Below, piece after piece: positions 1 through 43,127 of a stretch of 64,000 nucleotides of DNA. The notes beneath the pieces were generated by a model, which saw only the letters and a list, made by a program, of their open reading frames with translations, did no database searches and was not told the origin of the DNA. How positions within the stretch are numbered: the first letter of the stretch is position 1; the number at the start of each line of letters is the position of its first letter. This DNA is from an uncultured Thermodesulfobacteriota bacterium (GTDB lineage Bacteria; Desulfobacterota; GWC2-55-46; JADFVP01), in the NCBI GenBank assembly GCA_964407495.1, contig CAYOVP010000003.1:1484-65483 (forward strand). Reading direction: 5' to 3'. Both the position numbers and the translations under genes were made by a program.

Positions 1-1158
1 ATTGAAGAAGTCGCCGGAGTTTAGGGTGTGGTTTACCTGTAGTTCGAAGTTCTGCGTAAGTAGATAGGTGAGCCCCAGCGTAACGGCAGTCTGCTCGCTG
101 GGTCCAAGGGCACCGGTGTTTCCAGACCTGAGACCAGCGCCAAAGGTGACCCTTCCGGGCAGTACGCCGAGTTCTGCGAGTATGGACCATGCGCGGGCAT
201 CGCCCGGGTTGGCGTTGAATATGTTCATTGGTTTGTCGGCCTTGCTGGCCTGGGCAACGGCATAGTTGAGGTACACGCCAAGGGGCATACCCATGACCGA
301 GCCCTGGGCCTGTGCATCAAGTGCCCAGCCCTCGGCCTTTTCCCTCGTAGAGCCACCCAGTTTGGTAGTGCCCAGCCAGGCCTGGCCGCCTGCGGCAAGG
401 TCCCAGCCCCCTATGGTATGCGTCCCCACGAGCCTCACGTAGTGCATGAAGGGCCCCGAGTCAGATGTGCCGTTCTCTGGTTGCCACATCGTGTAGTCTA
501 TATACCCAGTGTTGTGATATGCCACAAAGGCGAAGCCCTGCGCCGCGTGAGAGAGCCCCACAAACTGAATGGCCGATATGCCTGTAGTGTGCTCCAGGAC
601 ACGTATATTGGCCACTGCCGCGGTGTTGAGCAACTCGAAACCAAACTGAGGGCCCAGTGCATCTGTTGTAAAGGGCACTACCTCGACGTGAACGGTCTTT
701 AAGTCCGTACCTATAGGGGCCTTGAAGTTGGCGAACATGGAACTACCTGAATCCGCCATCTGCCCTTCAAGTAAAAAGCCGATATGCTCACCTATGCGAC
801 CGCCGAGGAAGAGGGCCGCCTCGTCTGGAAACTGGAACTCACCCTTGTTGGTGCCAGAGTCATTGTTCTGGCCGTCTGTCTTCTGATAGCGTATCTTCGT
901 GACAACAGCCGCGTTCAGGGTGGAGGGAAGGGAGAGAAAATCACCCTCTACAAGGCTCTGTCCACCCACCATGGTGAAGCCGTTGGCCTTGAAGGCCCTG
1001 CCAAAAGAGTTGAGGGCCGGGTAGTGCTGGTAGTGACAGGTGTTGCAGGCAAAACCCGTCTGTCTGGCAAATGCTGGTATTGCCCATGAGGATCTTGGAG
1101 CCGACAGGATGGTGATAATCAAGGCCGCGGTGAACGTAAGGAAAAGTAACTTTTTCAT
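1..1158 (-). CDS. cyc2: Cyc2-type outer-membrane monoheme cytochrome c-porin fusion (candidate Fe(II) oxidase), 3'-truncated by the window edge
   Basis: Not in the ORF track; hand translation of 386 codons with no stop. ATG at 1158 with GGAGG RBS at about 1163-1167. Signal peptide MKKLLFLTFTAALIITILSAPRSSWA, then IPAFARQTGFACNTCHYQHYPALNSFGRAFKANGF: AxPxFARQT motif, single CxxCH at 1047-1033, PxL four residues later. Followed by an amphipathic beta-strand-rich region (QFPDEAALFLGGRIGEHIGFLLEG ... TLGLTYLLTQNFELQVNH). Confidence 0.92.
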   Translation of the reverse strand, partial: MKKLLFLTFTAALIITILSAPRSSWAIPAFARQTGFACNTCHYQHYPALNSFGRAFKANGFTMVGGQSLVEGDFLSLPSTLNAAVVTKIRYQKTDGQNNDSGTNKGEFQFPDEAALFLGGRIGEHIGFLLEGQMADSGSSMFANFKAPIGTDLKTVHVEVVPFTTDALGPQFGFELLNTAAVANIRVLEHTTGISAIQFVGLSHAAQGFAFVAYHNTGYIDYTMWQPENGTSDSGPFMHYVRLVGTHTIGGWDLAAGGQAWLGTTKLGGSTREKAEGWALDAQAQGSVMGMPLGVYLNYAVAQASKADKPMNIFNANPGDARAWSILAELGVLPGRVTFGAGLRSGNTGALGPSEQTAVTLGLTYLLTQNFELQVNHTLNSGDFFN

Positions 1159-1265
1159 GATACCTCCTTGTGATTATCTCCTCAATGCCTCTTCTCGTTG
1201 GTGGTCTGTGGTGGTATGGCCTTGTAGAAGGAAGGAAAGTGGCTATGCATGACCGCCACGATGCT

Positions 1266-1294
1266 ATTACATTAGATATCGCATTTATTGTCAA
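1266..1294 (-). promoter_or_regulatory. sigma70-type promoter of cyc2
   Basis: Minus strand TTGACA (1294-1289), 17-nt spacer, TGTAAT (1271-1266); about 100-nt leader to the ATG. Confidence 0.7.
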
Positions 1295-1585
1295 GTACTT
1301 TAAGAACTTGTGTGGTCTGTCCATAAGCCTGAAGGCATCTCCGCGAAGAAAGTACTTGCCCTTGACCTTGTAGACTCGAGTTTGAAATATGGAAAAATTT
1401 CCGGGGCTATCGGGCCTTGGCCTGCCTTGGTACACGAACAACGGCCAAGGTGGGCAACCACTGAAAAGGCCGGTAGATTATGCGACAGGTTGGATGCCAC
1501 CTTCTATCCTGGGGGTGGTAAGAGAGAGGTACTCTCGTAAGGTGAGTAGGGCGGGTCTGGTGAGACTGGCTTGGGACAGAACCTT

Positions 1586-1685: not shown

Positions 1686-4280
1686 TCAAAAGAACTTGAG
1701 TTTTCTCCTGTAGTGGAGGCTGTTGCGGTCTGTGGGGTCTACATCAAGGGCCTTTCTGAAGTAGGCTGTTGCGCGGTCGAAGTTGGCGGCAGCGAAGTAG
1801 GCCCTGCCCACAAGGTTGTACTGACCGGCATAGTACTTTTTCATGAGTTTTTCTGCCAGGGCCTTTTTGTCCATATCATCATGTACTACAAGGTAGGGCA
1901 GGACAGGCTCTCGGAGCCGTACGAACTCTGCGATGTTTGGGGAGATGGTATTGATGTGGAGGCTCTTGGGGCCAGTGAACTCCACCACAGGCATGTCGTC
2001 TGTCATGACAGGGCCGTCGCCTGCGTACCTGCGGACACGGTCTTCGTTCATTACAAAGGTTGCAAGGAACTCCGCCGGGTCATCGAGGTCTATGTCCGAG
2101 AGGAGGTCCTTTATGTTGGGCATAGAGAGTTTCTTCACGAGCCGCTCATAATCTACGGTGAGTCTTCTCTCAGAGCCGAGCATGAAGATGTCCGTATTGG
2201 CGAGCCAGATGGAGGTGTGCGGGAAGACGGACTGGAAGGTACGGACCATGAGGCGGACGTCATCCACGGTGAGGTTGTAAAGAGGTATCCACTGCGACAT
2301 TATTCCGCCCTTCTTGAGATGGGCCTTGGCGAGTTCGTAGTATTCCTTTGTGTACAGGTTCACCACACCCGCAAGGGCCGGGTGCATGGGCTCCTCGGTG
2401 ATCACATCGTACTTGTTCTTTGTTACGGCAAGAAAACTCCGTCCGTCGTCTATGTTTATCTTGGATACCGGATTGTTCAGTACATCCATGTTGGCGTCCT
2501 TGAAGTACGAGGCCCCGCCAATGACGGCCTTGGCAATCTCCACATTGTCTACCTGTTTCACCGGAAACTGGCTCAGCGTACCAAAGGTAGTCCCGGAGCC
2601 AAAGCATATTACGAGGACGTCCCTTGGGTTGGGGTGAATGACCATGGGCAGTACGCCCTGAAAGCGGTTTATCTGTAGGCCCTCGTAATATGCGGCAGTG
2701 GCCCTGTTCCCATTCACCCAGAGGCGCTTGTTCGATGCCTCGATTCCAAAACCCTTTCGCTCGGCTATCATCACCGTGGCAGTGGCCCCTTCCTTGTAAT
2801 AGAGTATCTCCTCGCCGCGTCGAAGAAGAGACTTGTGAAGACTCAGTGGCATGTTCTCAGGAAGAGTGAGTACAAGACCTGCCATGGCCGCTACGCCTAT
2901 GACGGGTATGGCGAGTTTAGGCATGCGCCCGCCAATGGGGTTGGCAAGGGCCACGACAAGGCCTATGAGTATGTTGATGCCCGCGGTTAGGATAATGGCG
3001 TTCTGCATTCCCACAAAGGGTATGAAGACAAAGCCGCTTATGAAAGATCCAAGTATGCCGCCTACCGTGTTCAGCGAGTATACGCGGCCTATCTTCTCGC
3101 CTACGCTCTCGGCGCTCCAGTCATAGACCTTGCATATGAGGGGAAAGGTGGCGCCAAAGAGAAAGGTGGGTATTATGAGCGTTATGAAGGATGTAAAGAA
3201 GTTGAGATATACGAACTCTCCCCAGTTGGGCGTACTGTCAAGACGGGCGTAAAAGCCCATTCCCGGCAACTTGGCGTAGAGGATGATGAGGGCAAGGGAA
3301 CTGAGCCCAATGAGGATCTCTACGGCAGAGAAGAGATATATTACCGCGGCGCGTGAACGTATCCTGTCCAGAAAGGAGGAGAGTACGAAACTCCCGAGCG
3401 CTATGCCCGTCAGAAAGACTGCCAGCACCACGGCAAAGGCATATACCGTACCCGTGAGGATGAACCCCAGGACCCTTGTCCAGACCACCTCGTAACACAG
3501 GCCCGTAAAGCCCGATAGACCAAAGGCGTAGAGTATGATGGTGTTGAAGTATGGCGGTATGGCCTTCTCAGGAGGGCGATGGTTGTCTCTGGCAGGCCCT
3601 GACCTGGGCCTGGCTTGGTCTTCGGCCCCGGTCATGTCTACCTCGCGGGCAGTCTCGGTCCTTCCAAAGAGTATGGCCGAAGCGCCTATGGCGAAGTTCA
3701 GCACCCCCGAGCCGTAGAGTATGGCCGAGAGCCCGAAAGAAGGGATGAATACAAAGGCCGCCAGTACGGCGCCGGTAACGGCCCCAAGAGTGTTGATGGC
3801 GTAGAGCCCGCCTATGTCCCAGGCAAAGGTGCGCCTTCCGCGCGCAAGGGTCTTGCTGAGTATGGGGAGAGTGGCGCCCATGAGCGTGGTGGGCACGATG
3901 AGGAGCAGGGCAGAGAGTATGAACTTTATGAGCGTGAGCCCGGCAAAACCAGAGCCCGTGGCCTGGGCAAGGAATACATAGGCGCTGTTGTTGACCTGCA
4001 GGAGGATGCCGAAGAGTATGGCATATACCCCTATGAGTATCTCGGCACCGCCGTACCAGAAAAAACCGCCCCTGTGGCGCTCGATCCACTTTCCGCCGAG
4101 AAAACTCCCGAGGGCAAGGCCGCCGAAGAAGGACGTGAGGACCGTACTCACGGCAAGGAATGTGACGCCAAAGGTGAGGGTTAGGAGTTTTGTCCAGACC
4201 ATCTGGTAGATGAGCGCCGCGACCCCAGAGGCGAAGAACATCAGGTAGATGAGTGCTCTCAATATAAAAAACCCCTTCAT
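1686..4280 (-). CDS. Fused multi-TM/spermidine-synthase-like (aminopropyltransferase fold) protein with C-terminal TPR
   Basis: About 13 TM segments (SGVAALIYQMVWTKLL, FGATFP repeats), then ICFGSGTT SAM-binding motif, DDGRSFL and EEPMHP; TPR-like tail. Confidence 0.85.
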   Translation of the reverse strand: MKGFFILRALIYLMFFASGVAALIYQMVWTKLLTLTFGVTFLAVSTVLTSFFGGLALGSFLGGKWIERHRGGFFWYGGAEILIGVYAILFGILLQVNNSAYVFLAQATGSGFAGLTLIKFILSALLLIVPTTLMGATLPILSKTLARGRRTFAWDIGGLYAINTLGAVTGAVLAAFVFIPSFGLSAILYGSGVLNFAIGASAILFGRTETAREVDMTGAEDQARPRSGPARDNHRPPEKAIPPYFNTIILYAFGLSGFTGLCYEVVWTRVLGFILTGTVYAFAVVLAVFLTGIALGSFVLSSFLDRIRSRAAVIYLFSAVEILIGLSSLALIILYAKLPGMGFYARLDSTPNWGEFVYLNFFTSFITLIIPTFLFGATFPLICKVYDWSAESVGEKIGRVYSLNTVGGILGSFISGFVFIPFVGMQNAIILTAGINILIGLVVALANPIGGRMPKLAIPVIGVAAMAGLVLTLPENMPLSLHKSLLRRGEEILYYKEGATATVMIAERKGFGIEASNKRLWVNGNRATAAYYEGLQINRFQGVLPMVIHPNPRDVLVICFGSGTTFGTLSQFPVKQVDNVEIAKAVIGGASYFKDANMDVLNNPVSKINIDDGRSFLAVTKNKYDVITEEPMHPALAGVVNLYTKEYYELAKAHLKKGGIMSQWIPLYNLTVDDVRLMVRTFQSVFPHTSIWLANTDIFMLGSERRLTVDYERLVKKLSMPNIKDLLSDIDLDDPAEFLATFVMNEDRVRRYAGDGPVMTDDMPVVEFTGPKSLHINTISPNIAEFVRLREPVLPYLVVHDDMDKKALAEKLMKKYYAGQYNLVGRAYFAAANFDRATAYFRKALDVDPTDRNSLHYRRKLKFF

Positions 4281-20998: not shown

Positions 20999-21007
20999 AG
21001 GATATCC

Positions 21008-21180
21008 ATAGTCACAGGCGGCCCCATGGGGCCTTAATAGGGAAGTACGGTGCAAGACCGTCGCGGACCCGCCGCTGTAACCGGGGACAAAAGCCGCATA
21101 TGTGCCACTGTTCTCTTCATGGGAACGGGAAGGCGCGGCGAGTAGGATGATCCGGGAGCCAGAAGACCTGCCAGTGATCT
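21008..21180 (+). ncRNA. Cobalamin riboswitch 1
   Basis: TAATAGGGAAGTACGGTGCAAGACCG...CCCGCCGCTGTAA...GCCACTG...GGGAAGG...GAGCCAGAAGACCTGCC (B12 box). Confidence 0.93.
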
Positions 21181-21245
21181 GCTAAGTTTTTTCGTCCCTC
21201 GTGGAAAGGGGGGTGGAATCATGCCTGGAGGATGAAAAACGGCAT

Positions 21246-21281: not shown

Positions 21282-21373
21282 GTCTCATCAAGGTGGACCA
21301 CTGGCAGAAAGGAGGTGTTGGCGACTGCGCGGGAGTGGCGCAGGCAGAGGAAAACAGGCCATAGATAATCAAT

Positions 21374-21522
21374 CGTCATGGTGCAAGGGAAGGGGGTGAG
21401 AGGCCCCCGCCGCCCCGCGACTGTAACCGGGTACGAAGGCCGCAGGCATGCCACTGTCTCCAGGGAGATGGGAAGGTGTGGCCAGTAGGATGATCCGGGA
21501 GCCAGGAGACCTGAGCCATGTC
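21374..21522 (+). ncRNA. Cobalamin riboswitch 2 (short P2 variant)
   Basis: GGTGCAAGGGAAGGGGGTGAGAGGCCCCC..CCCCGCGACTGTAA...GCCACTG...GGGAAGG...GAGCCAGGAGACCTG. Confidence 0.9.
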
Positions 21523-21568
21523 CTCATATCGCTTCGAGCCCCGAGGGGGGCGGAAAGGAGACCAGAAC

Positions 21569-23488
21569 GTGAGGTACATCTCTATATTATTGTGTTTTTT
21601 TCTCTACACGAGTCTTCATCTGGCCATTGCAGTAGAGAGCGCCGTGGCCGGTGAAGAGGCAGACAAGGTGATTGTGACGGCAACGAGGATAGAGACACCG
21701 GTGGACGAAGTTGGAAGCGATGTTACGATAATCAGCGGGAAAGAGATAGAGAAGTCGCAGAAGAAGACCGTTGCAGAAATACTTCGCGGTGTTGGTAGCC
21801 TTGACGTGGTCCGAACAGGCGGACCAGGGAGCACCACGAGCGTCTTTATCCGCGGGGCCAAGGCCGAGCACACGCTCGTGATGATAGACGGCGTGGAGAT
21901 GAATGACCCCATCTCCGCTGGACGCACCTTCAACTTCGCAGACCTCACGGTGGACAACATAGAGCGCATAGAAATAATAAAGGGGCCGCAGAGCACGCTC
22001 TATGGTTCGGACGCAATGGGAGGCGTCATCAATATAATCACAAAGAAGGGTTCTGGCAGACCCCGGGCCTTCATAAGCGGCGAGGCCGGGTCATTCAGCA
22101 CTTACCGCGAGAGCGCGGGGCTGAGCGGCGGCACGTCGCTGGTTAATTATTCCTTGAGCCTCTCGCGCGAGGACACGGATGGTATCTCCTCTGCCGCGGC
22201 AAAGGACGGTAATACCGAGGCAGATGCCTATGAGAATACCACTGTTGCAGGCCGCTTCGGCCTCACCCCTACTGAGTATCTCTCCCTCGACCTCACTGCC
22301 AGGTACACCGACGCGAGGCACGATATAGACAACGGAGGCGGGAGGGGCATGGACGACCCGAACAACACCATGGAATCGAAGAGATTGTCCTTTCGTACCT
22401 CTGCGAGCCTCTTTCTCTTAGATGGCATACTGGAGAATACGGTTGGTTTTTCTCTTACAGACCAGGAGAGCGAGAACAACAACGGCACCGACCCGCTTCA
22501 TCCTGCGAGCCTGACCCTGAGTTCCTTTGACAGTCAGTCGAGAAAGACCGATCTCCAGAGTACGCTCCGCATGGGCCGTGCAGGGACCCTCACGGCAGGC
22601 ATAGAATACGAGGAAGAGGAGGGAGAGTCCAAGTTCCATTCAGAGAGCGCTTGGGGTCCCTTTACGAGCAACTTCAGCAACCAGAAGGCCCGCAACACGG
22701 GTTATTACGCAGAGGAGAGCATAGGGTTTTTCGAGCGCCTCTTCCTTACCGTGGGCGTACGCTCGGACAATCACAACAGGTTCGGCTCCGAGACCACCTA
22801 CAGGGCTACGGGCGCCTACAAGATCAAGGAGACGGGCACAACGCTGAAGGCCACCTTTGGCACTGGTTTCAAGGCCCCAACGCTCTTTCAACTCTTCTCG
22901 CAGTACGGCGATGTGCATCTTCTTCCAGAGACGAGCACGGGCTGGGATGCCGGCATCGAGCAGACCCTTGCCAGCGGCAGGGTGAGCCTCGGCGTCACGT
23001 ACTTTGCCAACAACTTCGACGACCTCATCGACTTCGACAGTGCTACCTGGAAGTACAGGAATATCTCCGGGGCAGAGACAAGCGGCGTCGAGATCAGCGC
23101 CATGGTGAGGCCTCTCGACGACCTTTCCATTCGCGCACGCTACACATATACGGATACGCTCGACAGGTCCACGAGGATGCAACTTCTTCGCCGCGCACCA
23201 AACAGTCTCAGTCTGAAGATGGTCTATGATTTTTCGGACAAGGGCAACGTGAACATGGACATAAACTACGTTGGCACACGTGATGACAAAGACTTCTCCA
23301 CCTTTCCGGCCACGCGCGTTACCCTTGGGCCCTATACCCTCGTTGACCTTGCCGCATCCTATGCGCTCACCAAGAACGTGACCATTACCGGTCGCATAGA
23401 GAACCTTCTTGACCAGGACTACGAAGAAGTGGCGGGCTTTGGTACGCCAGGCATAGGGGCCTACGGCGGCGTGAGGGTTACATTTTAG
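21569..23488 (+). CDS. btuB: TonB-dependent cobalamin receptor
   Basis: Signal peptide, TonB box VIVTATR, plug (SVFIRGA...VMIDGV, IERIEIIKGPQSTLYGSDAMGGVINIITK), C-terminal F; follows B12 riboswitches; GTG start with AAAGGAG RBS. Confidence 0.92.
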   Translation: MRYISILLCFFLYTSLHLAIAVESAVAGEEADKVIVTATRIETPVDEVGSDVTIISGKEIEKSQKKTVAEILRGVGSLDVVRTGGPGSTTSVFIRGAKAEHTLVMIDGVEMNDPISAGRTFNFADLTVDNIERIEIIKGPQSTLYGSDAMGGVINIITKKGSGRPRAFISGEAGSFSTYRESAGLSGGTSLVNYSLSLSREDTDGISSAAAKDGNTEADAYENTTVAGRFGLTPTEYLSLDLTARYTDARHDIDNGGGRGMDDPNNTMESKRLSFRTSASLFLLDGILENTVGFSLTDQESENNNGTDPLHPASLTLSSFDSQSRKTDLQSTLRMGRAGTLTAGIEYEEEEGESKFHSESAWGPFTSNFSNQKARNTGYYAEESIGFFERLFLTVGVRSDNHNRFGSETTYRATGAYKIKETGTTLKATFGTGFKAPTLFQLFSQYGDVHLLPETSTGWDAGIEQTLASGRVSLGVTYFANNFDDLIDFDSATWKYRNISGAETSGVEISAMVRPLDDLSIRARYTYTDTLDRSTRMQLLRRAPNSLSLKMVYDFSDKGNVNMDINYVGTRDDKDFSTFPATRVTLGPYTLVDLAASYALTKNVTITGRIENLLDQDYEEVAGFGTPGIGAYGGVRVTF

Positions 23489-23540
23489 GTGAAGGCCAGG
23501 TGTGCCAGTACAACTCGTGAAAACAAGGGGGTAGGCGACC

Positions 23541-24716
23541 TTGAAGACAGGTGCCTCTGAGAGTGAAGATAGGCTTCATGTCATGGGAGAGGTTTTCCCC
23601 CCTGGTATCAGAACCATCTCCCTTGGAAGGGTACCCGCGTACCTCGGGGACAAGGGACTTACACTGCCCCTTGCGCTCTCGGCCCTTGTTCACGTAGTAT
23701 TTCTTACACTGGTCTTCGGCATCTTTGTTGGGGGGCACGGTCCCGTAGGGGCCGGGGGGTCAGTTGTCTTCGTGGATATTTCCGCCCTTTCGACCGGGCC
23801 TCGTCACCGGGGGGCCGGGCTTCCATCGCACGGTCATATAAGCATGGATCCGGCCAGGGGGGCTCTGACACTGGCCAGAGGCCACGAGGACGCCGTCCGG
23901 CGGAGGGAGGATACGCCGGTGTCGTCTGCAAGGACCGTAAAGACCGGTCTCGGCGCCAGCCCCAGGCACCTCCTCAATAGCGGCCCTGTAGAGGCCCTCC
24001 CGTCACCAGGGGTAACCAGGGAAGGGGGAGTCTTGGTGAAAGGCCGTGTGGCAATGAAGGCGGAGGGCGGGGATATTGCGATCAAGACCAAAGACAGGGA
24101 AAAAACAGTTGACCCAGGAGAGGGAGGGACGGGGAGCGCCAATGATGCCCCTTCCAATGGCGGCCTCCATGCCTTGGGTGCCCTCAGGGCAGAACCCCTC
24201 CGGGGCGCCAAGGACGAGACCGCTGACAATGAGATGCAAGTAAACTCCGGGGCTCATGGAGGGCAGGAGAAGGGGCAGGGTCTTGTGGTTGCCTCTATCT
24301 CTGACCGTGCCATGAGCAGGCCCCTGCTGGGAGGGGCCGCGCAGTTGGGAGGGAAAGGCAGTGAGGGGGCGGAGGAGGCGGCCCCTGGCAGAGGGGCTGG
24401 CCAGGGGCATCATGCAGGGCCTTCTGGTACGGGAAGCGGGGTGAGCATAAGGGGACTCCGGGCCCCGGCATACCCCCTTATATCGAGACTCCGGGGCGAG
24501 GAAGGGACGGTAGAGATAGGGGTCGAGATAGGCCCGGGCGGGGCCCTCTTGAGCGCAAGGGTAAGCAGATCGAGCGGTTTTGCCTCCCTTGACAGGGCCG
24601 CACTCAAGGCCGTAAGGGCCGCCCGTTTCTCGGCACGGGGTATCATGCCCGGTGCCTCACCATACAAGAAAAACATTGTCTTTGTCTTCAGGCTCAAGGA
24701 TAGGCGTGAGAATTAA
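23541..24716 (+). CDS. tonB: TonB-family energy transducer with long Gly/Ala/Pro-rich linker
   Basis: TM anchor with SALVH (SxxxH); C-terminal YPLISRLRGEEGTV...SSGFASLDRAALKAV; start uncertain. Confidence 0.78.
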   Translation: MKTGASESEDRLHVMGEVFPPGIRTISLGRVPAYLGDKGLTLPLALSALVHVVFLTLVFGIFVGGHGPVGAGGSVVFVDISALSTGPRHRGAGLPSHGHISMDPARGALTLARGHEDAVRRREDTPVSSARTVKTGLGASPRHLLNSGPVEALPSPGVTREGGVLVKGRVAMKAEGGDIAIKTKDREKTVDPGEGGTGSANDAPSNGGLHALGALRAEPLRGAKDETADNEMQVNSGAHGGQEKGQGLVVASISDRAMSRPLLGGAAQLGGKGSEGAEEAAPGRGAGQGHHAGPSGTGSGVSIRGLRAPAYPLISRLRGEEGTVEIGVEIGPGGALLSARVSRSSGFASLDRAALKAVRAARFSARGIMPGASPYKKNIVFVFRLKDRREN

Positions 24717-25671
24717 GCCGCTCTTCTCTACGAGGAAGGCCCTCATGGGGGTCCTCCTCCTGGTCCTCATCGTGGTTTGTGCTTTTTCATCGTTTGCTTG
24801 GGCCGGTCGCGAGGGTTCTTCCCATGGTACCTCCACCGGCCTGGGGCAGCGCATAGTCTCGCTCTCACCCGGTGTTACTGAGACCCTATTCGCCCTTGGC
24901 CTCGGCCCCCGCGTCGTGGGCGTGACGCGTTTCTGCTCATACCCGCCAGAGGCCTGCATGCTCCCCAAGGTGGGTGGCTTTGTAGACCCCAATTATGAGG
25001 CCATTGCATCTCTTGGTCCAGACGTGGCCGTGGTCCTGCCCGAGCAGGCCGGGGTGGCCAGGAACCTCCAGGCCCTCGGGATAAAGACCATTACAGTGAA
25101 CAACAAGACCGTTGAGGACATAATGGGGGCCATAGCCACGCTTGGCCGGGCCTTTGGCGCCCATGGGCGCGCAGAGGCGCTTCTTTCAGACCTCCGTAAG
25201 AGGATGGATGCCCTTGGCCGCAGGGCCCCCGGAGGGCCCAGGCCCCGGGTCCTCGTCTCAGTGGCGCGCGGCATGGGTTCCCTTGGTATGAAGACCGTCT
25301 ACATAGCCGGCAGGGGGAGTTACTTCGATGAACTCGTGAAGATGGCAGGCGGGCGGAACGCCTATGGGAGAAAGACCCCAAAGTACCCCCGCCTCTCATG
25401 GGAAGGTCTCCTCGACCTCGACCCTGACATCATCATAGACCTGGTGCCTTCTCTTGAGAAGAGGGGATGGGACGAGAAGGCCATACTCGCCCAGTGGCGC
25501 GTAATGAAAGGGCTCAGGGCCCTTGACGAGGGCAGGGTCTTTGTCCTCGGAAAGGACTATGTCACCATACCTGGGCCAAGGTTCATACTACTCCTCGAAG
25601 ATATGGCGCGCATAATACACCCCTCGAAGGGGAGGGCAGGGCGCAATGAGACCAAAGGCCATAGAAGTTAG
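24706..25671 (+). CDS. btuF: Cobalamin ABC transporter periplasmic binding protein
   Basis: RIVSLSPGVTETLFALG, VVGVTRFCSYP, PNYEAI, PGPR. Confidence 0.85.
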   Translation: MRIKPLFSTRKALMGVLLLVLIVVCAFSSFAWAGREGSSHGTSTGLGQRIVSLSPGVTETLFALGLGPRVVGVTRFCSYPPEACMLPKVGGFVDPNYEAIASLGPDVAVVLPEQAGVARNLQALGIKTITVNNKTVEDIMGAIATLGRAFGAHGRAEALLSDLRKRMDALGRRAPGGPRPRVLVSVARGMGSLGMKTVYIAGRGSYFDELVKMAGGRNAYGRKTPKYPRLSWEGLLDLDPDIIIDLVPSLEKRGWDEKAILAQWRVMKGLRALDEGRVFVLGKDYVTIPGPRFILLLEDMARIIHPSKGRAGRNETKGHRS

Positions 25672-26431
25672 AGACCTCTTCTTTTCCATAGGAGACAATC
25701 CCATACTGCGGGGCGTCTCGCTGGACGTGGAGACAGGGGAGTTTGTCTCCATAATCGGGCCCAACGGCGCTGGCAAGAGTACGCTCCTCAAGTGCCTCGT
25801 CCGAGTCTATGGCCGGTGGAAGGGAGTGGTGCGCCTCAAGGGCCGCGGACTTGCCAGGTACTCGCAGAGAGAACTTGCCCGCACCATGAGTTACGTGCCG
25901 CAGGCCCGCGACAGGGCCATGCCCTTTACTGTCTTGGAGTTTGTGCTCATGGGCCGCTATCCCCACCTCAGCCCCTTCTCCATCATAGAGAGGGCAGACG
26001 AGTCTGCGGCCATGGAGGCCCTCGCCATGGTGGGCATGGGGGGCTTTGCCCGCCGCGCCATGGATACGCTGAGCGGTGGCGAGCGCCAGAAGGTCCTCAT
26101 AGCCGGGGCCCTCTCGCAGGGCTCGGAGATAATGCTCCTCGATGAACCAACCACCTTCCTCGACCCCCGCCATGAGCACGAGATAATAGACATCCTCAAC
26201 AGGATAAACAATGAGAGGGGCGTAACCATCGTCTCTGTTACACACGACATAAACCATGCCGCCCTTTTCAGCACAAGGATAATCGCCATTAAGGACGGTG
26301 CCGTGGTCTTCACCGGTACGCCCCATGACCTGATGAACGAAGAGGTCCTGGGAGGTATATACGAAAAACCCTTTACCTTTGTCATGCACCCAGTGGCAGG
26401 CAGGCCCGTTGTAATACCGGAGGCTAGGTGA
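25646..26431 (+). CDS. btuD: Cobalamin/iron ABC transporter ATPase
   Basis: GPNGAGKS, LSGGERQ, LLDEPT. Confidence 0.85.
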   Translation: MRPKAIEVRDLFFSIGDNPILRGVSLDVETGEFVSIIGPNGAGKSTLLKCLVRVYGRWKGVVRLKGRGLARYSQRELARTMSYVPQARDRAMPFTVLEFVLMGRYPHLSPFSIIERADESAAMEALAMVGMGGFARRAMDTLSGGERQKVLIAGALSQGSEIMLLDEPTTFLDPRHEHEIIDILNRINNERGVTIVSVTHDINHAALFSTRIIAIKDGAVVFTGTPHDLMNEEVLGGIYEKPFTFVMHPVAGRPVVIPEAR

Positions 26432-27423
26432 GAAGGGTTGCTCTGAAGAAGAGGAGGCTCCTTGGCGTGCTCCTCGCTCTGGCATTTCTATCTCTGCTCC
26501 TGACCCCCTTTGCCGGTATAATGACCATTCACGCAGGCGACGTTCTTGGGGGCACTGGAGGAGCGAATGTCTTCTGGGAGATAAGGGTGGCGAGGGTGCT
26601 CACTGCCTTTGTCGCCGGAGCGGCCCTCTCTCTGAGCGGCATGACCTTCCAGGCCATCTTCCGTAATCCCCTTGCAACTCCCTTTACCCTTGGTGTAGCC
26701 AATGGGGCGGCCCTCGGGGCCGCGCTCTCCATCTGGCTTGGCCTTGGGTTCAGCATCCTCGGGTTCCCGGGTGACTCGGTCTTTGCATTCATGGGCGCAG
26801 GCGCCGCCATATTCCTCGTATACGGCCTTACGAGGCTGAGACGCGGCCTATCCACACTTACCATGCTCCTTGCCGGTGTTGCCGTGGGGGCCTTCTGCTC
26901 ATCCATCATACTCTTCATCCAGTACATGAGCGATTTTACCCAGTCCTTCCAGATCATACGCTGGCTCATGGGCGGGCTCGAGGTAGTGGGATATGAGCCG
27001 CTACTCGAGATGCTCCCCTTTGTGGCCGCAGGGGCCCTTGTAATATTCTTTATTTCACGGGAACTCAATCTCATGATAACAGGCGAGGAGGTGGCCGTGA
27101 GCCGGGGCGTAAACGTGAGGCGCACGAGGCTCCTTGCCTTCCTCGCCACATCCGTGATGGTGGGCGGCGTGGTCTCGGTCTGCGGGCCCATTGGGTTTGT
27201 GGGCATGATGGCCCCTCATATCTGCAGGCTCGTCATTGGTCAGGACCACAGATATCTTGCCCCGGCCTCTCTTCTCTTTGGCGGTGCCTTTCTCCTTCTC
27301 TGCGACACGCTTGCAAGGACCATAATATCGCCTGCAGAGATACCCGTGGGGGTGATTACCGCACTCCTTGGTGGGCCTTTCTTCATCTGGCTCCTCATGG
27401 GAAGGAAGGGTCCTGCGCTCTGA
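26428..27423 (+). CDS. btuC: Cobalamin/iron ABC transporter permease (FecCD family)
   Basis: RNPLATPFTLG, GPIGFVG..PH, EIPVGVITALLGGPFF. Confidence 0.87.
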   Translation: MRRVALKKRRLLGVLLALAFLSLLLTPFAGIMTIHAGDVLGGTGGANVFWEIRVARVLTAFVAGAALSLSGMTFQAIFRNPLATPFTLGVANGAALGAALSIWLGLGFSILGFPGDSVFAFMGAGAAIFLVYGLTRLRRGLSTLTMLLAGVAVGAFCSSIILFIQYMSDFTQSFQIIRWLMGGLEVVGYEPLLEMLPFVAAGALVIFFISRELNLMITGEEVAVSRGVNVRRTRLLAFLATSVMVGGVVSVCGPIGFVGMMAPHICRLVIGQDHRYLAPASLLFGGAFLLLCDTLARTIISPAEIPVGVITALLGGPFFIWLLMGRKGPAL

Positions 27424-40121: not shown

Positions 40122-40184
40122 GCCAGGTATTTTACCTTGACCACGAGGTAATATTGGCGTACTATATCCTGGAAGAACAATATA

Positions 40185-40290
40185 CCTCTATCTCCGAGCC
40201 CCTCTCTCCTAAGGCCGACCGCGGCTATGGAGGCCGGGCCGTTCAGGGTATGCCGGGAAACGGACATGCCTCCCCTTTGGAAAGGAGAGT
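40185..40290 (+). ncRNA. Moco (molybdenum cofactor) riboswitch
   Basis: CTCCGAGC...CCTAAG...TATGG...GGAAAC...GCCTCCC-TTTGGAAAGGAG; directly upstream of modABC. Confidence 0.87.
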
Positions 40291-40296
40291 CTCCAT

Positions 40297-40326
40297 AACC
40301 GGCCTTTCCGTGGCCGGTTTTTTTAT
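40297..40326 (+). terminator. Terminator of the Moco expression platform
   Basis: AACCGGCC-TTTCCGT-GGCCGGTT plus U-tract. Confidence 0.7.
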
Positions 40327-40431
40327 CTCTTAAAAACCAAGACCAGCAGGTGGAGGGACAAAGGGGAGGATGGTGCATCGTCTCCTGGCGCACCTTCTTT
40401 TGCCACGACTTCTTTGCCTTGGCAAGGGACC

Positions 40432-41214
40432 ATGACAGGATCGGTAAAAAACATCTTCGCCTTCTGCGCGGCCTTCTTGGTGGTCTTTTTTCTTTCTCTT
40501 CCGCCTTCGCGAGCCACTGAGAAAAAGACGCTCTCCGTGGCCGCGGCGAGCAGTTTTTCCGAGGCCCTGCTGGAGATAGGCAAGGGTTTCGAGGCAGGGG
40601 AAGGAGTACGCCTAAGGCCTGTATTCGGTTCCTCGGGGATACTCTCGCGCCAGATAGAGCGCGGCGCGCCCTTTGATGTCTTCATCTCCGCCGGCAGTGC
40701 CTATATGGACGGCCTTGTGGAGAGCGGCGCCGTGCAGGGGGAAACGGTGCGCGCCTTTGCAAGGGGTGTTCTCGTAATGGTATATCGGGAGGACGGGGCG
40801 CTTCGCATCGGGAGGATGGGAGACCTCCTTGACCCCGGAATAAGGCGCGTGGCAGTAGCAAACCCCGAGCACGCGCCCTATGGCCGCGCCGCGGTAGAGG
40901 CCATGAAGAAGGCCGGGGTCTATGGGGCTGTACGGAAAAAACTCGTCTATGGCGAGAACGTCCGCCAGGCCCTTCAGTTCGTGGAGAGCGGCAACGCGGA
41001 AGTGGGTTTCGTGGCCCTCTCCATAGCAAGGCGAGAGGGCATGGGGTACGTGCCCCTCAGTGCCGGGCTCTACAGCCCCGTAATACAGACCGTGGCAGTA
41101 GTTAGTACGACTCGCAATGGCGCAGATGCCGAGAAGTTCATAGAGTATCTCACGGGTCCGGCCGGGCAGAGGGTGCTCGAAAGGTATGGTTTCAGGCCGG
41201 TTGAGGGCAGATGA
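40432..41214 (+). CDS. modA: Molybdate ABC transporter binding protein
   Basis: VAAASS, FGSSG, DVFISA, NPEHAPYG, ENVRQA. Confidence 0.93.
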   Translation: MTGSVKNIFAFCAAFLVVFFLSLPPSRATEKKTLSVAAASSFSEALLEIGKGFEAGEGVRLRPVFGSSGILSRQIERGAPFDVFISAGSAYMDGLVESGAVQGETVRAFARGVLVMVYREDGALRIGRMGDLLDPGIRRVAVANPEHAPYGRAAVEAMKKAGVYGAVRKKLVYGENVRQALQFVESGNAEVGFVALSIARREGMGYVPLSAGLYSPVIQTVAVVSTTRNGADAEKFIEYLTGPAGQRVLERYGFRPVEGR

Positions 41215-41236
41215 AAACTTCGGGGGACAAGAGGCA

Positions 41237-41893
41237 ATGAACATCTTTCCGCTCTACCTCACCATGAAGGTATCTCTCGTGGCTACGCTCTTTGTAGTGG
41301 TCGTGGGCCTTGGCCTCGGCCTCGTTCTTGCCAGGAGAGAGTTCCCGGGAAAGAACGTCCTCGACGTTCTAATCATGCAACCCCTCGTCATCCCCCCCAC
41401 TGTGCTCGGCTATTATCTCCTTACGCTCCTTGGCCGTTCTTCTCCCCTTGGACGTTTTCTCGAGGGTGGGTTGGGGCTCGAACTCGTCTTTACCTGGAAG
41501 GGCGCCGTCGTAGCCGCATTTCTCTCGGCCCTGCCCCTCTTCGTAAAACCGGTTCGCGCAGCCATTGAGGGCGTTGGCCGCGAGTACGAGGACGCGGCAA
41601 GGCTCCTTGGCAAGACAGAATTCCAGGTCTTCAGGACCATTACTCTGCCACTTGCCTGGCGCGGCATAGCCGCTGGCACGGTCATGTCCTTTGCAAGGGC
41701 AACGGGCGAGTTCGGGGCAACGCTCATGGTGGCCGGGAATATCCCTGGTGTTACGCGTACCATGCCCCTTGCCATCTATGATGCCGTTCAGATGGGCGAC
41801 ACCCATACGGCAAACGTCCTGGTCCTCATAGTTACGCTCTTCTCGTTCGCCGTTCTCTACGCGGCGAGCATCATCACGAGGGGCAGGCTTTAG
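41237..41893 (+). CDS. modB: Molybdate ABC transporter permease
   Basis: PLVIPPTVLGY, FARATGEFGATLMVAGNIPG. Confidence 0.93.
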   Translation: MNIFPLYLTMKVSLVATLFVVVVGLGLGLVLARREFPGKNVLDVLIMQPLVIPPTVLGYYLLTLLGRSSPLGRFLEGGLGLELVFTWKGAVVAAFLSALPLFVKPVRAAIEGVGREYEDAARLLGKTEFQVFRTITLPLAWRGIAAGTVMSFARATGEFGATLMVAGNIPGVTRTMPLAIYDAVQMGDTHTANVLVLIVTLFSFAVLYAASIITRGRL

Positions 41894-41982: not shown

Positions 41983-42020
41983 AAATTCCTTGGTCTTTTT
42001 TTTACTTCTTGGTTTTTATC

Positions 42021-43127
42021 ATGAGTCTTACGCTTCGTCTCAAGAAGTCATTCGGCGATTTTTCTCTTGGTCTCTCCCTTGCCCTTGGCGACGACCTGAC
42101 CGTTCTCTTTGGTCCATCGGGCGCAGGAAAGAGCCTTGTCCTGAGACTGATCTCCGGCATAGAGCGTCCCGACGAGGGTGTTGTGGAGATATGCGGGGAG
42201 AGGGTCTTTGACAGAGGGGCAGGCATTGATATACCCATACGGGAGCGCAGGGTTGGCTTCCTCTTCCAGGACTACGCCCTCTTTCCCCATATGAGCGTAT
42301 ATGAGAACATAGCCTACGGGCTTCGAGGCCCTGGCGGCCCGGGCTGGCCTGGTCGGGCCGAGATACGGACCATGGTGGGTGAACTCCTTGGCATAATGCG
42401 GCTCACCGGGCTCGAGGAGCGATACCCCCATGAACTATCTGGCGGACAGAAGCAACGTGTGGCCCTTGCGCGCACCCTTGCCGCCTCGCCGCGCATACTC
42501 CTCCTCGACGAGCCCTTCTCTGCCCTTGACTACCAGGTGCGTGAGAAACTCCGGCGCGACCTCCTGCGCATCCATGAGCGCTTTCCCATCACCATTGTCC
42601 TTGTAACACACGACCTCGAGGAGGCCTTCATGATGGGCTCTTCCATAGCAGTCATAAACAACGGCCAGGTAGAGCAGTTCGGCAGCACGGAAGATGTCTT
42701 CTACAGGCCAAGTACCCGCAATGTCGCGCGCTTTGTGGGTATACGCAATATTTTTACCGGTGTTGTCGTGGAGTGCTCGGGCAGGGCTGTCACGCTTCGG
42801 AGCAGGGCAACGGGCCTCATAAGGGCTACTCTCCCAGAGGGGCGGGTACTCAATAAGGGCCAGAAGGTGGACTTCTGCATACGTCCTGAGGAGATACCCG
42901 TGGTGAGGGCAGGGCGGGCCATGGAAGAGGCGAGGAGAACAAACGTAATCAGCGGAAGGATAACATCGGTTACAGGCATGGGCACCATGCACAGCGTCTT
43001 CGTAGAGGCGGGCTCCTGCCAGTTGAAGGTGGACCTGCCCAATTTCGTTATGCGGGATTTATCACTTGCCGAGGGCCATGATATCAGTCTATTATTGAAG
43101 AAGGAGAATATCTGGATAATACCCTGA
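42021..43127 (+). CDS. modC: Molybdate ABC transporter ATPase with TOBE domain
   Basis: GPSGAGKS, LFPHMSV, LSGGQKQR, LLDEPFSALD. Confidence 0.9.
   Translation: MSLTLRLKKSFGDFSLGLSLALGDDLTVLFGPSGAGKSLVLRLISGIERPDEGVVEICGERVFDRGAGIDIPIRERRVGFLFQDYALFPHMSVYENIAYGLRGPGGPGWPGRAEIRTMVGELLGIMRLTGLEERYPHELSGGQKQRVALARTLAASPRILLLDEPFSALDYQVREKLRRDLLRIHERFPITIVLVTHDLEEAFMMGSSIAVINNGQVEQFGSTEDVFYRPSTRNVARFVGIRNIFTGVVVECSGRAVTLRSRATGLIRATLPEGRVLNKGQKVDFCIRPEEIPVVRAGRAMEEARRTNVISGRITSVTGMGTMHSVFVEAGSCQLKVDLPNFVMRDLSLAEGHDISLLLKKENIWIIP

What the first reader, a model, noticed from the sequence alone, without database searches (positions are those of the whole stretch)
1..1158. Hidden Cyc2 cytochrome-porin (Fe(II)-oxidase marker) in a deltaproteobacteria-like chromosome
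Seen: an ORF absent from the track because it runs off the edge, with a signal peptide, IPAFARQTG, one CNTCH, PAL four residues later, and a porin-like body. Known: this is the Cyc2 family, and ..AFARQTG..CxxCH....PAL(N)xFGRxFK resembles the Cyc2 of neutrophilic iron oxidisers (Zetaproteobacteria/Gallionellaceae, cluster 1). Inference: the host may oxidise extracellular Fe(II) even though its core genes look deltaproteobacterial, a group better known for reducing metals. Cyc2 has been reported in the vent lineage DTB120, so this could be a relative or a horizontal acquisition. It sits among housekeeping genes with a near-consensus promoter and no visible mobile element.
Basis: partly seen in the sequence, partly recalled or inferred. 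Interest (0 to 1): 0.85.

Follow-up and report, generated by a model that had tools for sequence, protein, structure and literature searches.

The report
Known Cyc2 gene of Lō'ihi Ferristratum
The gene really does encode a Cyc2 cytochrome-porin, the marker for bacterial iron oxidation, but it comes from the Lō'ihi vent iron-mat lineage (DTB120, Candidatus Ferristratum) where this gene was already reported and shown to be expressed in 2020.

Summary
Window 1158..1 (minus strand) holds the first 386 codons of a 408-aa protein. It has a signal peptide, AIPAFARQT, one CNTCH, and PAL four residues later. The predicted body is a 16-strand porin resembling OprO/OprP. It meets every published sequence and architecture criterion for Cyc2 that I could test. 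It aligns end to end with a Sideroxydans lithotrophicus ES-1 Cyc2 (32% identity, E 5e-49) and a Leptothrix ochracea homolog (37%, E 7e-67). Only 22 residues are cut off by the window edge, and there is no frameshift.

The novelty claim fails. The window's first 11,158 bases are identical to contigs from Lō'ihi Seamount iron-mat metagenomes (Fullerton 2017). McAllister et al. 2020 described Cluster 1 cyc2 there in Candidatus Ferristratum (DTB120), expressed and responsive to Fe(II). The protein falls in a 100%-bootstrap clade. One member of that clade is from a MAG classified GTDB Desulfobacterota class GWC2-55-46 and placed next to the Sideroxydans ES-1 references in its authors' Cyc2 alignment. 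GC content (56%) matches the Ferristratum type MAG. Gene composition is native, so there is no sign of recent transfer.

One item may be unreported: a PEGA-domain lipoprotein gene always follows this Cyc2 subfamily, but not the cyc2 of Sideroxydans or Leptothrix.

The parts
1..1158 (-). cyc2 coding sequence, codons 1-386 of 408. The last 22 codons and the stop lie beyond window position 1.
   Evidence: Translation; full-length identical protein P0001; 100% nucleotide identity to L001/L002, which carry the complete gene.
1081..1158 (-). Signal peptide, aa 1-26 (MKK, hydrophobic core, SWA). The cleavage site after SWA is inferred.
   Evidence: Read directly from the sequence. AF2 models aa 2-19 as a helix detached from the barrel. 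No SignalP run was available.
925..1083 (-). Monohaem cytochrome c domain, aa 26-78. It contains the Cyc2 signature AIPAFARQT (1083-1057), the haem site CNTCH (1047-1033) and PAL (1020-1012).
   Evidence: The motif definition is from Keffer 2021. In 182 of 201 homologs the motif sits at a fixed 3-residue distance from CxxCH, and 198 of 201 have exactly one CxxCH. A26, P28, F30, R32, Q33, T34, G35, C38, C41, H42 and L49 are invariant in 68 aligned homologs.
1..921 (-). Outer-membrane beta-barrel (porin) domain, aa 80-386 within the window (barrel continues to aa 408).
   Evidence: AF2 model has mean pLDDT 80.9 and pTM 0.80. DSSP strands from aa 80 to 407 merge to about 16. Foldseek probability is 1.00 to 16-strand porins, including OprP 2o4v and OprO 4rjw with TM 0.52. 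The C-terminal residue is F or Y in 201 of 201 homologs.
1163..1169 (-). Shine-Dalgarno sequence AAGGAGG, 4 nt before the ATG.
   Evidence: Read from the sequence. AAGGAGGTAnCATG is conserved in L001 and L005-L010.
1264..1300 (-). Conserved promoter-like block TAAAGTaCTTGACA-N-CGATATcTA-N-TAATA. It contains TTGACA (1294-1289) and then either TGTAAT (1271-1266, 17-nt spacer) or TAATAG (1269-1264, 19-nt spacer). The spacer core is also conserved, so it may be an operator.
   Evidence: Alignment of six upstream regions. Not called by the strict consensus scan. Function not shown.

Best explanation
Window 1158..1 encodes the Cluster-1-type Cyc2 of a Lo'ihi Seamount iron-mat bacterium. The bacterium belongs to the DTB120 / GTDB GWC2-55-46 lineage, named Candidatus Ferristratum, and is probably the population of its type MAG. 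SHOWN: the protein has a Sec-type leader, a ~50-residue domain with one c-type haem site (C38/C41, H42) inside the Cyc2-specific AxPxFAR[Q/K][T/Y]...CxxCH....PxL signature, and a predicted ~16-strand outer-membrane barrel. It is homologous along its full length to the Cyc2 of cultured neutrophilic iron oxidisers. INFERRED FROM THE FAMILY (Keffer 2021 for Cyc2PV-1; Castelle 2008 for A. ferrooxidans, the latter from my own knowledge): after export and haem attachment the barrel inserts in the outer membrane. The small cytochrome sits at or inside the periplasmic mouth of the pore. Dissolved Fe2+ reaching the haem is oxidised to Fe3+ outside the cell, and the electron passes to a periplasmic c-type cytochrome and on to the respiratory chain. 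INFERRED FOR THIS LINEAGE: the terminal acceptor is probably nitrate via NarGH, giving nitrate-dependent Fe(II) oxidation by a heterotroph as McAllister 2020 proposed. In two vent-clade relatives the gene lies between a bc1-type complex and an Alternative-Complex-III-like operon. That fits a role in feeding electrons into or around the quinone pool. A PEGA-domain lipoprotein encoded immediately downstream is probably an outer-membrane partner of unknown role.
For: Family membership: motif, single haem site, PxL spacing and length of 408 aa. Barrel model and OprO/OprP-like fold, the same templates reported for Cyc2PV-1. 32% identity over aa 27-408, E 5e-49, to P0371. P0371 is the middle of three tandem paralogs at ~265 kb on CP001965.1, matching the three cyc2 genes Slit_0263-0265. 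37% identity, E 7e-67, to the Leptothrix ochracea homolog. These identities fall in the 25-53% range seen within Cluster 1, not the 15-23% seen between clusters. Host: 100.000% identity over 11,158 nt to contigs of IMG 3300009408 (Fullerton 2017, Lo'ihi) and IMG 3300023548. P0001-P0014, all 408 aa, form a clade with 100% bootstrap, as reported for Ferristratum Cyc2. Clade member P0012 is from MAG Dive96_bin4.244, classified p__Desulfobacterota;c__GWC2-55-46. Its authors list it beside the ES-1 references in their Cyc2 alignment and report DTB120 MAGs with Cluster I Cyc2. Window GC is 56%, against 56.1% and 2.31 Mb for type MAG S6_Bacteria1 and 56.12% and 2.31 Mb for Fullerton's DeltaBin003. 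Function: cyc2 of Ferristratum MAGs is expressed in situ and rises with narG after Fe(II) addition. Respiratory neighbours occur in relatives L023 and L024. Native composition.
Against: No activity, haem incorporation or localisation has been measured for this protein or any DTB120 Cyc2. The expression data come from unreplicated shipboard microcosms. I could not compare it with the biochemically tested Cyc2PV-1 or A. ferrooxidans Cyc2, run the FeGenie HMMs, or include Cluster 2/3 references in a tree. The Cluster 1 label therefore rests on identity levels and published placements of clade members. In this species the gene lies among housekeeping genes, not respiratory ones. The cytochrome domain is modelled at low confidence, pLDDT below 50. 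The closest relatives at 50-68% identity come from lineages not known to oxidise iron, and they carry a PEGA partner that Sideroxydans and Leptothrix lack.
Confidence: 0.8

Rival explanations
1. It is a Cyc2-family protein, but in this PEGA-linked subfamily it does not conserve energy from Fe(II). It could serve another outer-membrane redox task, such as Fe(II) detoxification, electron export to extracellular acceptors, uptake from other donors (minerals, electrodes, partner cells), or redox sensing.
For: The nearest homologs at 50-68% identity are in Desulfobacterota, Nitrospirota, Nitrospinota, Methylomirabilis and Methylophilaceae MAGs not known as iron oxidisers. The subfamily has a conserved PEGA lipoprotein partner that the cyc2 loci of Sideroxydans and L. 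ochracea lack. Ferristratum is inferred to be a heterotroph. Keffer et al. themselves caution that Cyc2 may have additional functions. Cyc2 also occurs in the cathode-oxidising Tenderia electrophaga.
Against: Cluster 1 is the best-validated cluster, with Cyc2PV-1 shown to oxidise Fe(II). The habitat is an Fe(II)-rich mat, and Ferristratum cyc2 expression rose after Fe(II) addition in parallel with narG. The haem-domain signature is fully conserved.
Confidence: 0.15
2. The gene is a recent horizontal acquisition from a proteobacterial iron oxidiser (Zetaproteobacteria or Gallionellaceae sharing the mat), not a lineage trait.
For: Cyc2 phylogeny is incongruent with organismal phylogeny in general. 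The cyc2-PEGA pair lies next to a tRNA-Leu(UAA) gene both in vent-clade relatives and in a distant 3-Mb genome. It sits in a different genomic context in the window's species than in its 75-89% relatives. Both points suggest the module has moved.
Against: GC, GC3 and codon usage of cyc2 are typical of the window: 56.5% vs 57.1+-2.1%, 66.6% vs 67.7+-4.8%, rank 10 of 34. Identity to the Sideroxydans Cyc2 is only 32%. The closest relatives are all from the same or neighbouring Desulfobacterota-like lineages, and they form a deep 14-member clade spanning 73-100% identity. That pattern implies long residence in the lineage. No integrase, transposase or repeat was seen near the gene in the window.
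Confidence: 0.04
3. It is an ordinary porin with a fortuitous CxxCH, not a cytochrome.
For: No Pfam, NCBIfam or PDB sequence match. A few homologs carry precomputed porin Pfam hits, PF13609 or PF13505.
Against: C38, C41 and H42 and the surrounding signature are invariant across 68 homologs down to 51% identity. They are retained in the Sideroxydans and Leptothrix proteins. 198 of 201 homologs have exactly one CxxCH, always at the same place.
Confidence: 0.01

Closest known systems
Cyc2 of Candidatus Ferristratum sp. (DTB120), Lo'ihi iron mats (McAllister et al. 2020, ISME J, PMC8114936)
   Same: Same habitat, with contigs identical to the window from Lo'ihi metagenomes. Same Desulfobacterota-like host type. 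Monophyletic Cyc2 clade with 100% support. In all likelihood this is one of the genes that paper describes.
   Different: I could not access the Ferristratum MAG sequences (IMG Ga0454285-87, Ga0454293, Ga0454316) to prove identity gene for gene. The paper does not mention the PEGA neighbour or the genomic context.
Cyc2PV-1 of Mariprofundus ferrooxydans PV-1 (Keffer et al. 2021, mBio, PMC8406198): biochemically validated Cluster 1 Fe(II) oxidase
   Same: Same architecture: signal peptide, one haem, the AxPxFAR[Q/K][T/Y] and PxL motifs, and a 16-strand porin modelled on OprO/OprP.
   Different: The host is an aerobic obligate lithoautotroph, whereas this host is inferred to be an anaerobic or facultative nitrate-respiring heterotroph.
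Cyc2 of Sideroxydans lithotrophicus ES-1 (Slit_0263-0265) and the Leptothrix ochracea homolog
   Same: Full-length homology: 32% identity, E 5e-49, and 37% identity, E 7e-67. Identical haem-domain signature, and the same C-terminal aromatic residue.
   Different: ES-1 has three tandem copies, and L. ochracea has two c-type cytochrome genes downstream. Neither has the PEGA lipoprotein gene. Their barrels are 30-40 residues longer or differ in the loops.
Cyc2 of Acidithiobacillus ferrooxidans (rus operon; first characterised Cyc2, placed in a different cluster from the neutrophiles)
   Same: Same family concept: an outer-membrane monohaem cytochrome fused to a porin that oxidises Fe(II).
   Different: Acidophile. 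Only about 18-23% identical to Cluster 1 proteins according to Keffer Fig. S7. Encoded in an operon with cyc1, cox and rusticyanin genes (my own knowledge). Not compared directly here.
MtoAB / PioAB / MtrCAB porin-cytochrome complexes
   Same: Outer-membrane electron conduits for extracellular iron redox chemistry.
   Different: These are separate multihaem cytochromes threaded through a separate 26-strand porin. They are not a single fused monohaem protein, and they are unrelated in sequence.

Membership tests
Cyc2 fused cytochrome-porin (criteria of Keffer et al. 2021 / FeGenie) | N-terminal signal peptide | tested here: met
   MKK, then a 17-residue hydrophobic stretch, then SWA|IP, read. 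Modelled as a detached helix, aa 2-19. Judged by inspection only; SignalP was not available.
Cyc2 fused cytochrome-porin | Exactly one CxxCH haem-binding motif near the N-terminus | tested here: met
   CNTCH at aa 38-42 is the only CxxCH, and the protein has only two Cys. 198 of 201 homologs likewise have one.
Cyc2 fused cytochrome-porin | AxPxFAR[Q/K][T/Y] motif just upstream of CxxCH, stated to be unique to Cyc2 | tested here: met
   AIPAFARQT at aa 26-34, three residues before C38. Definition. The same spacing occurs in 182 of 201 homologs.
Cyc2 fused cytochrome-porin | PxL motif four residues after CxxCH | tested here: met
   H42-YQHY-PAL. 177 of 201 homologs have it.
Cyc2 fused cytochrome-porin | Length of at least 365 aa | tested here: met
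   Full protein P0001 is 408 aa. The window alone holds 386 aa.
Cyc2 fused cytochrome-porin | C-terminal 16-strand beta-barrel porin with structural similarity to OprO/OprP | tested here: met
   AF2 pLDDT 80.9, about 16 strands. Foldseek hits to 16-strand porins include 2o4v (OprP, rank 9) and 4rjw (OprO, TM 0.52). The same templates are cited by Keffer. The strand count rests on merging kinked DSSP segments.
Cyc2 fused cytochrome-porin | Sequence homology (E <= 1e-5) to a reference Cyc2 | tested here: met
   E 5e-49 to S. lithotrophicus ES-1 Cyc2. E 7e-67 to the L. ochracea homolog. Not tested against Cyc2PV-1, A. ferrooxidans Cyc2 or Cyt572.
Cyc2 fused cytochrome-porin | Score above cut-off with the FeGenie Cyc2 HMMs | not testable with these tools
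   FeGenie HMMs are not in any available library. Pfam and NCBIfam have no Cyc2 model.
Cyc2 Cluster 1 (neutrophilic iron oxidisers) | Phylogenetic placement with Zetaproteobacteria, Gallionellaceae and Chlorobi sequences, apart from Clusters 2 and 3 | tested here: inconclusive
   No Cluster 2/3 or zetaproteobacterial references could be retrieved, and deep nodes of my NJ tree are unresolved. Indirect support: 32-37% identity to Cluster 1 members, against 15-23% between clusters. Clade member Dive96_bin4.244 is listed beside the ES-1 references before the Cluster II block of its authors' alignment, and they report DTB120 MAGs with Cluster I Cyc2. Ferristratum Cyc2 was placed in Cluster 1.
Cyc2 (function) | Covalently bound haem and Fe(II)-oxidising activity | not testable with these tools
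   Requires expression and biochemistry as in Keffer et al. 2021.
Host: Candidatus Ferristratum / DTB120 (GTDB class GWC2-55-46) | 16S rRNA gene within SILVA DTB120 | not testable with these tools
   No rRNA gene in the window.
Host: Candidatus Ferristratum / DTB120 | At least 65% AAI to Ferristratum MAGs, or a GTDB-Tk assignment | not testable with these tools
   Ferristratum MAGs are not retrievable, and NCBI taxonomy has no such name. A related MAG carrying a 77%-identical Cyc2 is classified GWC2-55-46.
Host: Candidatus Ferristratum / DTB120 | Origin in Lo'ihi iron mats, with composition matching a described MAG | tested here: met
   100% identity over 11,158 nt to IMG 3300009408 and 3300023548 contigs. 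GC 56%, against 56.1% for S6_Bacteria1 and 56.12% for DeltaBin003. Circumstantial.

The most novel reading that the evidence does not exclude
The Cyc2 of this lineage belongs to a distinct, widespread subfamily. Members come from Desulfobacterota GWC2-55-46/DTB120, Nitrospinota, a 3-Mb betaproteobacterium-like genome and others, and share 40-100% identity. In this subfamily the gene is always followed by a ~290-aa PEGA-domain lipoprotein gene, and often preceded by a divergent tRNA-Leu(UAA). Classical iron oxidisers (Sideroxydans, Leptothrix) lack this partner. The most novel reading is that Cyc2 plus the PEGA lipoprotein form a two-component outer-membrane module. The lipoprotein could cap, gate or anchor the pore, or handle the Fe(III) product. 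Such a module would be specialised for anaerobic (nitrate-dependent) Fe(II) oxidation or another form of extracellular electron exchange, and would have spread as a unit. I found no paper mentioning Cyc2 together with PEGA.
Probability: 0.3. Interest if true: 0.55.

Novelty: already known. Interest (0 to 1): 0.22.

Why it matters
Cyc2 is the main genetic marker used to infer neutrophilic Fe(II) oxidation in metagenomes. Its presence in a nitrate-respiring, Desulfobacterota-related heterotroph underlies the proposal that anaerobic nitrate-dependent iron oxidisers share vent iron mats with aerobic Zetaproteobacteria. That proposal is already in the literature (McAllister 2020; Keffer 2021; a Southwest Indian Ridge study in 2022; an Arctic vent preprint in 2026). 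This window re-finds a published gene in published data and opens no new question. What could add something is the conserved PEGA lipoprotein partner and the respiratory neighbourhood (bc1-type and ACIII-like genes) seen in relatives. These give concrete candidates for the still-unknown periplasmic and outer-membrane partners of Cyc2 in anaerobes.

Tried and rejected
1. Pfam, NCBIfam and PDB sequence searches of the protein gave nothing. This is expected, because no curated Cyc2 model exists in those libraries.
2. I searched paper texts for printed Cyc2 motif strings to recover a reference sequence. The search returned only noise.
3. A second homolog search seeded with the Methylophilaceae protein P0116 found no named iron oxidiser. 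The third search, seeded with P0276, did.
4. I looked for the sample and contig identifiers in McAllister's supplements. None were present, so the link to Ferristratum MAGs remains circumstantial.
5. NCBI taxonomy has no 'Ferristratum'. 'Candidatus Deferrimicrobiota' turned out to be MBNT15, not DTB120, so I dropped that lead.
6. I searched the window for homologs of the genes flanking cyc2 in relatives. None were found, so synteny could not be used to tie the host to those MAGs.
7. I tested whether the ACIII-like operon follows PEGA in the window's species. Contigs end about 400 bp after PEGA, so this is unresolved.
8. Conservation analysis was used instead.
9. Structure prediction of the PEGA protein was not attempted, because it lies outside the window and is not an admissible input.
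Full report
OBSERVATION. The minus strand of window 1-1158 is an uninterrupted frame of 386 codons. It starts at the ATG at 1158-1156, four bases after an AAGGAGG Shine-Dalgarno sequence. The product begins MKKLLFLTFTAALIITILSAPRSSWA|IPAFARQTGFACNTCHYQHYPALNSFGRAFK. It has a signal-peptide-like leader, IPAFARQTG, a single CNTCH (the protein's only two cysteines), and PAL exactly four residues after the haem histidine. The frame leaves the window, but the complete protein is on record as P0001: 408 aa, 100% identical, ending ...LTTLMIFAAF. Only 22 residues are missing, and there is no frameshift or early stop beyond the edge. The gene is real. 1272 proteins match at E<=0.001 in the word-indexed search, and 2167 cluster representatives match in the exhaustive search.

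WHAT IT IS. No Pfam, NCBIfam or PDB sequence model matches, which is expected because Cyc2 has no curated model there. Keffer et al. 2021 (PMC8406198) define the family operationally by these features:
- a signal peptide;
- one CxxCH;
- an AxPxFAR[Q/K][T/Y] motif just upstream, said to be unique to Cyc2;
- a PxL four residues downstream;
- a length of at least 365 aa;
- a fused 16-strand porin structurally like OprO/OprP.
The window protein meets each one. The motif is AIPAFARQT, aa 26-34. In 201 retrieved homologs the motif occurs in 182, always three residues before the CxxCH. 198 have exactly one CxxCH, and all end in F or Y. An AlphaFold2 model built on 68 homologs is confident (mean pLDDT 80.9, pTM 0.80). 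It shows an all-beta body from residue 80 to 407 whose DSSP strands merge to about sixteen. The haem domain (aa 19-78) is modelled poorly, as expected without the cofactor. Foldseek against the PDB returns 16-strand porins at probability 1.00, including OprP 2o4v and OprO 4rjw, the latter with the highest TM-score of 0.52.

LINK TO REFERENCE CYC2. Reaching a named reference took three searches. The third recovered P0371 from Sideroxydans lithotrophicus ES-1. It is the middle of three tandem Pfam-less paralogs at about 265 kb on CP001965.1, matching the three cyc2 genes Slit_0263-0265 (Zhou et al. 2022). The window protein aligns with it over aa 27-408 at 32% identity, E 5e-49. It aligns with the Leptothrix ochracea homolog at 37%, E 7e-67. 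Keffer's Fig. S7 gives 25-53% identity within Cluster 1 and 15-23% between clusters, so these values fit Cluster 1. I could not retrieve Cyc2PV-1, A. ferrooxidans Cyc2 or any Cluster 2/3 sequence, nor run FeGenie. My own cluster assignment is therefore indirect.

WHO THE HOST IS. The first 11,158 bases of the window are identical, with zero mismatches, to two JGI contigs. One is Ga0117756_1000047 (99 kb) of IMG 3300009408. Fullerton et al. 2017 name that IMG record as the composite metagenome of Lo'ihi Seamount iron mats. The same protein also occurs in two SRA-derived assemblies. McAllister et al. 2020 (PMC8114936) described Candidatus Ferristratum from exactly these mats. It has 19 MAGs, first binned as Desulfobacterota/'Delta', assigned to SILVA phylum DTB120. 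Those MAGs carry a Cluster 1 cyc2 forming a monophyletic clade with 100% support. The gene is expressed in situ and responds to Fe(II) addition together with narG.

Four results connect the window to that lineage:
- P0001-P0014, all exactly 408 aa and 73-100% identical, form a clade with 100% bootstrap in my NJ tree.
- Clade member P0012 (77% identical) is encoded by MAG Dive96_bin4.244. The Southwest Indian Ridge study classifies that MAG as p__Desulfobacterota;c__GWC2-55-46 and lists its Cyc2 directly below the ES-1 references in the alignment table. Its main text reports DTB120 (Desulfobacterota) MAGs with Cluster I Cyc2, without naming the bins. Equating this bin with those MAGs is my inference.
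- The window's GC is 56%. This matches the Ferristratum type MAG S6_Bacteria1 (56.1%, 2.31 Mb, cyc2 present and expressed) and Fullerton's DeltaBin003 (56.12%, 2.31 Mb, longest contig 128 kb). The other Ferristratum MAGs range from 48 to 58%.
- NCBI labels the closest MAGs only 'Thermodesulfobacteriota' or 'Deltaproteobacteria bacterium'.
The assignment is not airtight. A 2026 preprint independently reports cyc2 in GWC2-55-46 MAGs from an Arctic vent.

CONTEXT. In the window the gene is followed upstream, across 527 bp, by an MFS/spermidine-synthase-like gene. Beyond that are an HD-domain protein, an epimerase, phosphoglycerate mutase, LapB and RlmH. Further on lie citrate synthase, a cobalamin-riboswitch-controlled BtuB-TonB-BtuF-BtuC cluster, a Moco-riboswitch-controlled ModABC, Lon, YhdP and others.

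The strict scan rejects it because position 2 of the -10 hexamer is G. However, the whole block, including the spacer core CGATATnTA and a following TAATA, is conserved in five related loci about 136 nt upstream of the start codon. It is therefore probably a genuine regulatory region, perhaps with an operator.

GC, GC3 and codon usage of cyc2 are typical of the window's genes, so there is no sign of recent transfer.

BEYOND THE FINDING. Immediately downstream of cyc2, outside the window, lies a 287-aa lipoprotein gene (L001 11442-12305). It has the lipobox LLSGC, a C-terminal PEGA domain, and an N-terminal domain with only sub-threshold likeness to LpoB/YajG/DUF4136-type lipoproteins. It has no haem motif.

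This gene follows cyc2 in nearly every related locus with enough downstream sequence: L001, L003, L005-L010, L012, L013, L015/L016, L019, L021, L023 and L024. The one exception is L011, which has about 1 kb downstream and gave no hit. The partner proteins are 32-45% identical to the window species' copy. The pairing spans Cyc2 identities down to 40% and hosts labelled Deltaproteobacteria and Nitrospinae, plus an unidentified 3-Mb genome. It is absent from Sideroxydans, which has tandem cyc2 copies, and from L. ochracea, which has two cytochrome c genes downstream. No paper in the library mentions Cyc2 together with PEGA.

In several relatives, and in the distant genome L015, a divergent tRNA-Leu(UAA) gene lies just upstream. 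The window's species lacks it. In L023 and L024 the pair sits next to an operon with the Pfam pattern of Alternative Complex III. L023 additionally has a bc1-type operon upstream, while L024 has a different Fe-S/NrfD-type complex there. That context supports a respiratory role. None of those flanking genes occurs in the window, so the module's position differs between species. What follows PEGA in this species is unknown, because all assemblies end within about 400 bp.

MECHANISM. Shown: the domain architecture and the homology. Inferred from the family: Sec export, haem attachment at C38/C41 with H42 as axial ligand, barrel insertion in the outer membrane with the small cytochrome at or in the periplasmic mouth, oxidation of dissolved Fe2+ at the cell surface, and electron hand-off to a periplasmic cytochrome. 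Inferred for the lineage: delivery of electrons towards nitrate reductase, possibly through or around bc1/ACIII, as McAllister et al. proposed. The main rival is that this PEGA-linked subfamily serves another extracellular redox task (about 15%). Recent horizontal acquisition (about 4%) and 'porin with a chance CxxCH' (about 1%) are poorly supported.

VERDICT. It is the Cyc2 of the Lo'ihi DTB120/Ferristratum lineage, in public data analysed in 2017 and interpreted in 2020-2021. Interest is low (0.22). The only possibly new element is the conserved Cyc2-PEGA lipoprotein module.

Noticed in passing
L001 11442-12305 (just left of window position 1); also L003, L005-L010, L012, L013, L015, L016, L019, L021, L023, L024: A ~290-aa lipoprotein gene with a C-terminal PEGA domain directly follows cyc2 in this Cyc2 subfamily, across hosts from different phyla. 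It is absent from the cyc2 loci of Sideroxydans ES-1 (L017) and Leptothrix ochracea (L022). No paper was found linking Cyc2 and PEGA.
   Followed up: partly
L007 1168-1254, L009 5667-5753, L010 5666-5752, L015 3650-3736 (partial copies at the starts of L005 and L006): A tRNA-Leu(UAA) gene lies 250-330 bp upstream of cyc2 and divergent from it, both in vent-clade relatives and in a distant 3-Mb genome. The window's species has no tRNA there, nor anywhere in the 64 kb. This suggests the tRNA-cyc2-PEGA unit has moved or been rearranged.
   Followed up: partly
L023 5691-8029 and 12481-19227; L024 12267-19227: In two vent-clade relatives, cyc2-PEGA is flanked by a gene set with the Pfam pattern of Alternative Complex III (multihaem c, molybdopterin-like, Fer4, NrfD, ActD, cytochrome c). 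In L023 there is also a divergent Rieske/cytochrome b/cytochrome c operon. An ATP-synthase-c-like small gene sits in between.
   Followed up: partly
window 1264-1300, minus strand: The promoter-like block upstream of cyc2 is conserved among six loci, including its spacer (CGATATnTA). A conserved spacer is unusual for a plain promoter and may mark a regulator binding site.
   Followed up: partly
window 20999-21189 and 21362-21534 (+): Two tandem cobalamin riboswitch aptamers (116.6 and 93.2 bits) precede a TonB-dependent receptor, TonB, a periplasmic binding protein and a FecCD-type permease (21518-27423). The second aptamer overlaps the first listed ATG of the receptor ORF, so the true start is probably further downstream.
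   Followed up: no
window 40180-40303 (+): A Moco/tungsten-cofactor riboswitch lies upstream of a molybdate-type ABC transporter: a solute-binding protein at 40414-41214, an unannotated ORF at 41186-41893 that is probably the permease, and an ATPase at 42009-43127. This fits a host that relies on molybdoenzymes such as nitrate reductase.
   Followed up: no
L001 end (12688), L003 end (3029), L002 end (11286), L004 end (1749): Four independent assemblies of this population all break either just after cyc2 or within ~400 bp after the PEGA gene. This hints at a repeat or strain-variable region immediately downstream.
   Followed up: no
L013 2-673 and 1523-2764: MAG Dive96_bin3.294 (also GWC2-55-46) carries two tandem cyc2 copies followed by one PEGA gene.
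   Followed up: no
window 1686-4280 (-): The gene upstream of cyc2 encodes an 864-aa protein that combines an MFS-like membrane region (below Pfam threshold) with a spermidine-synthase domain.
   Followed up: no
L019 7118-8281: In the GWC2_42_51-type locus, genes for a di-haem peroxidase-like protein (CCP_MauG) and a FixO-like cytochrome c lie shortly downstream of cyc2-PEGA.
   Followed up: no
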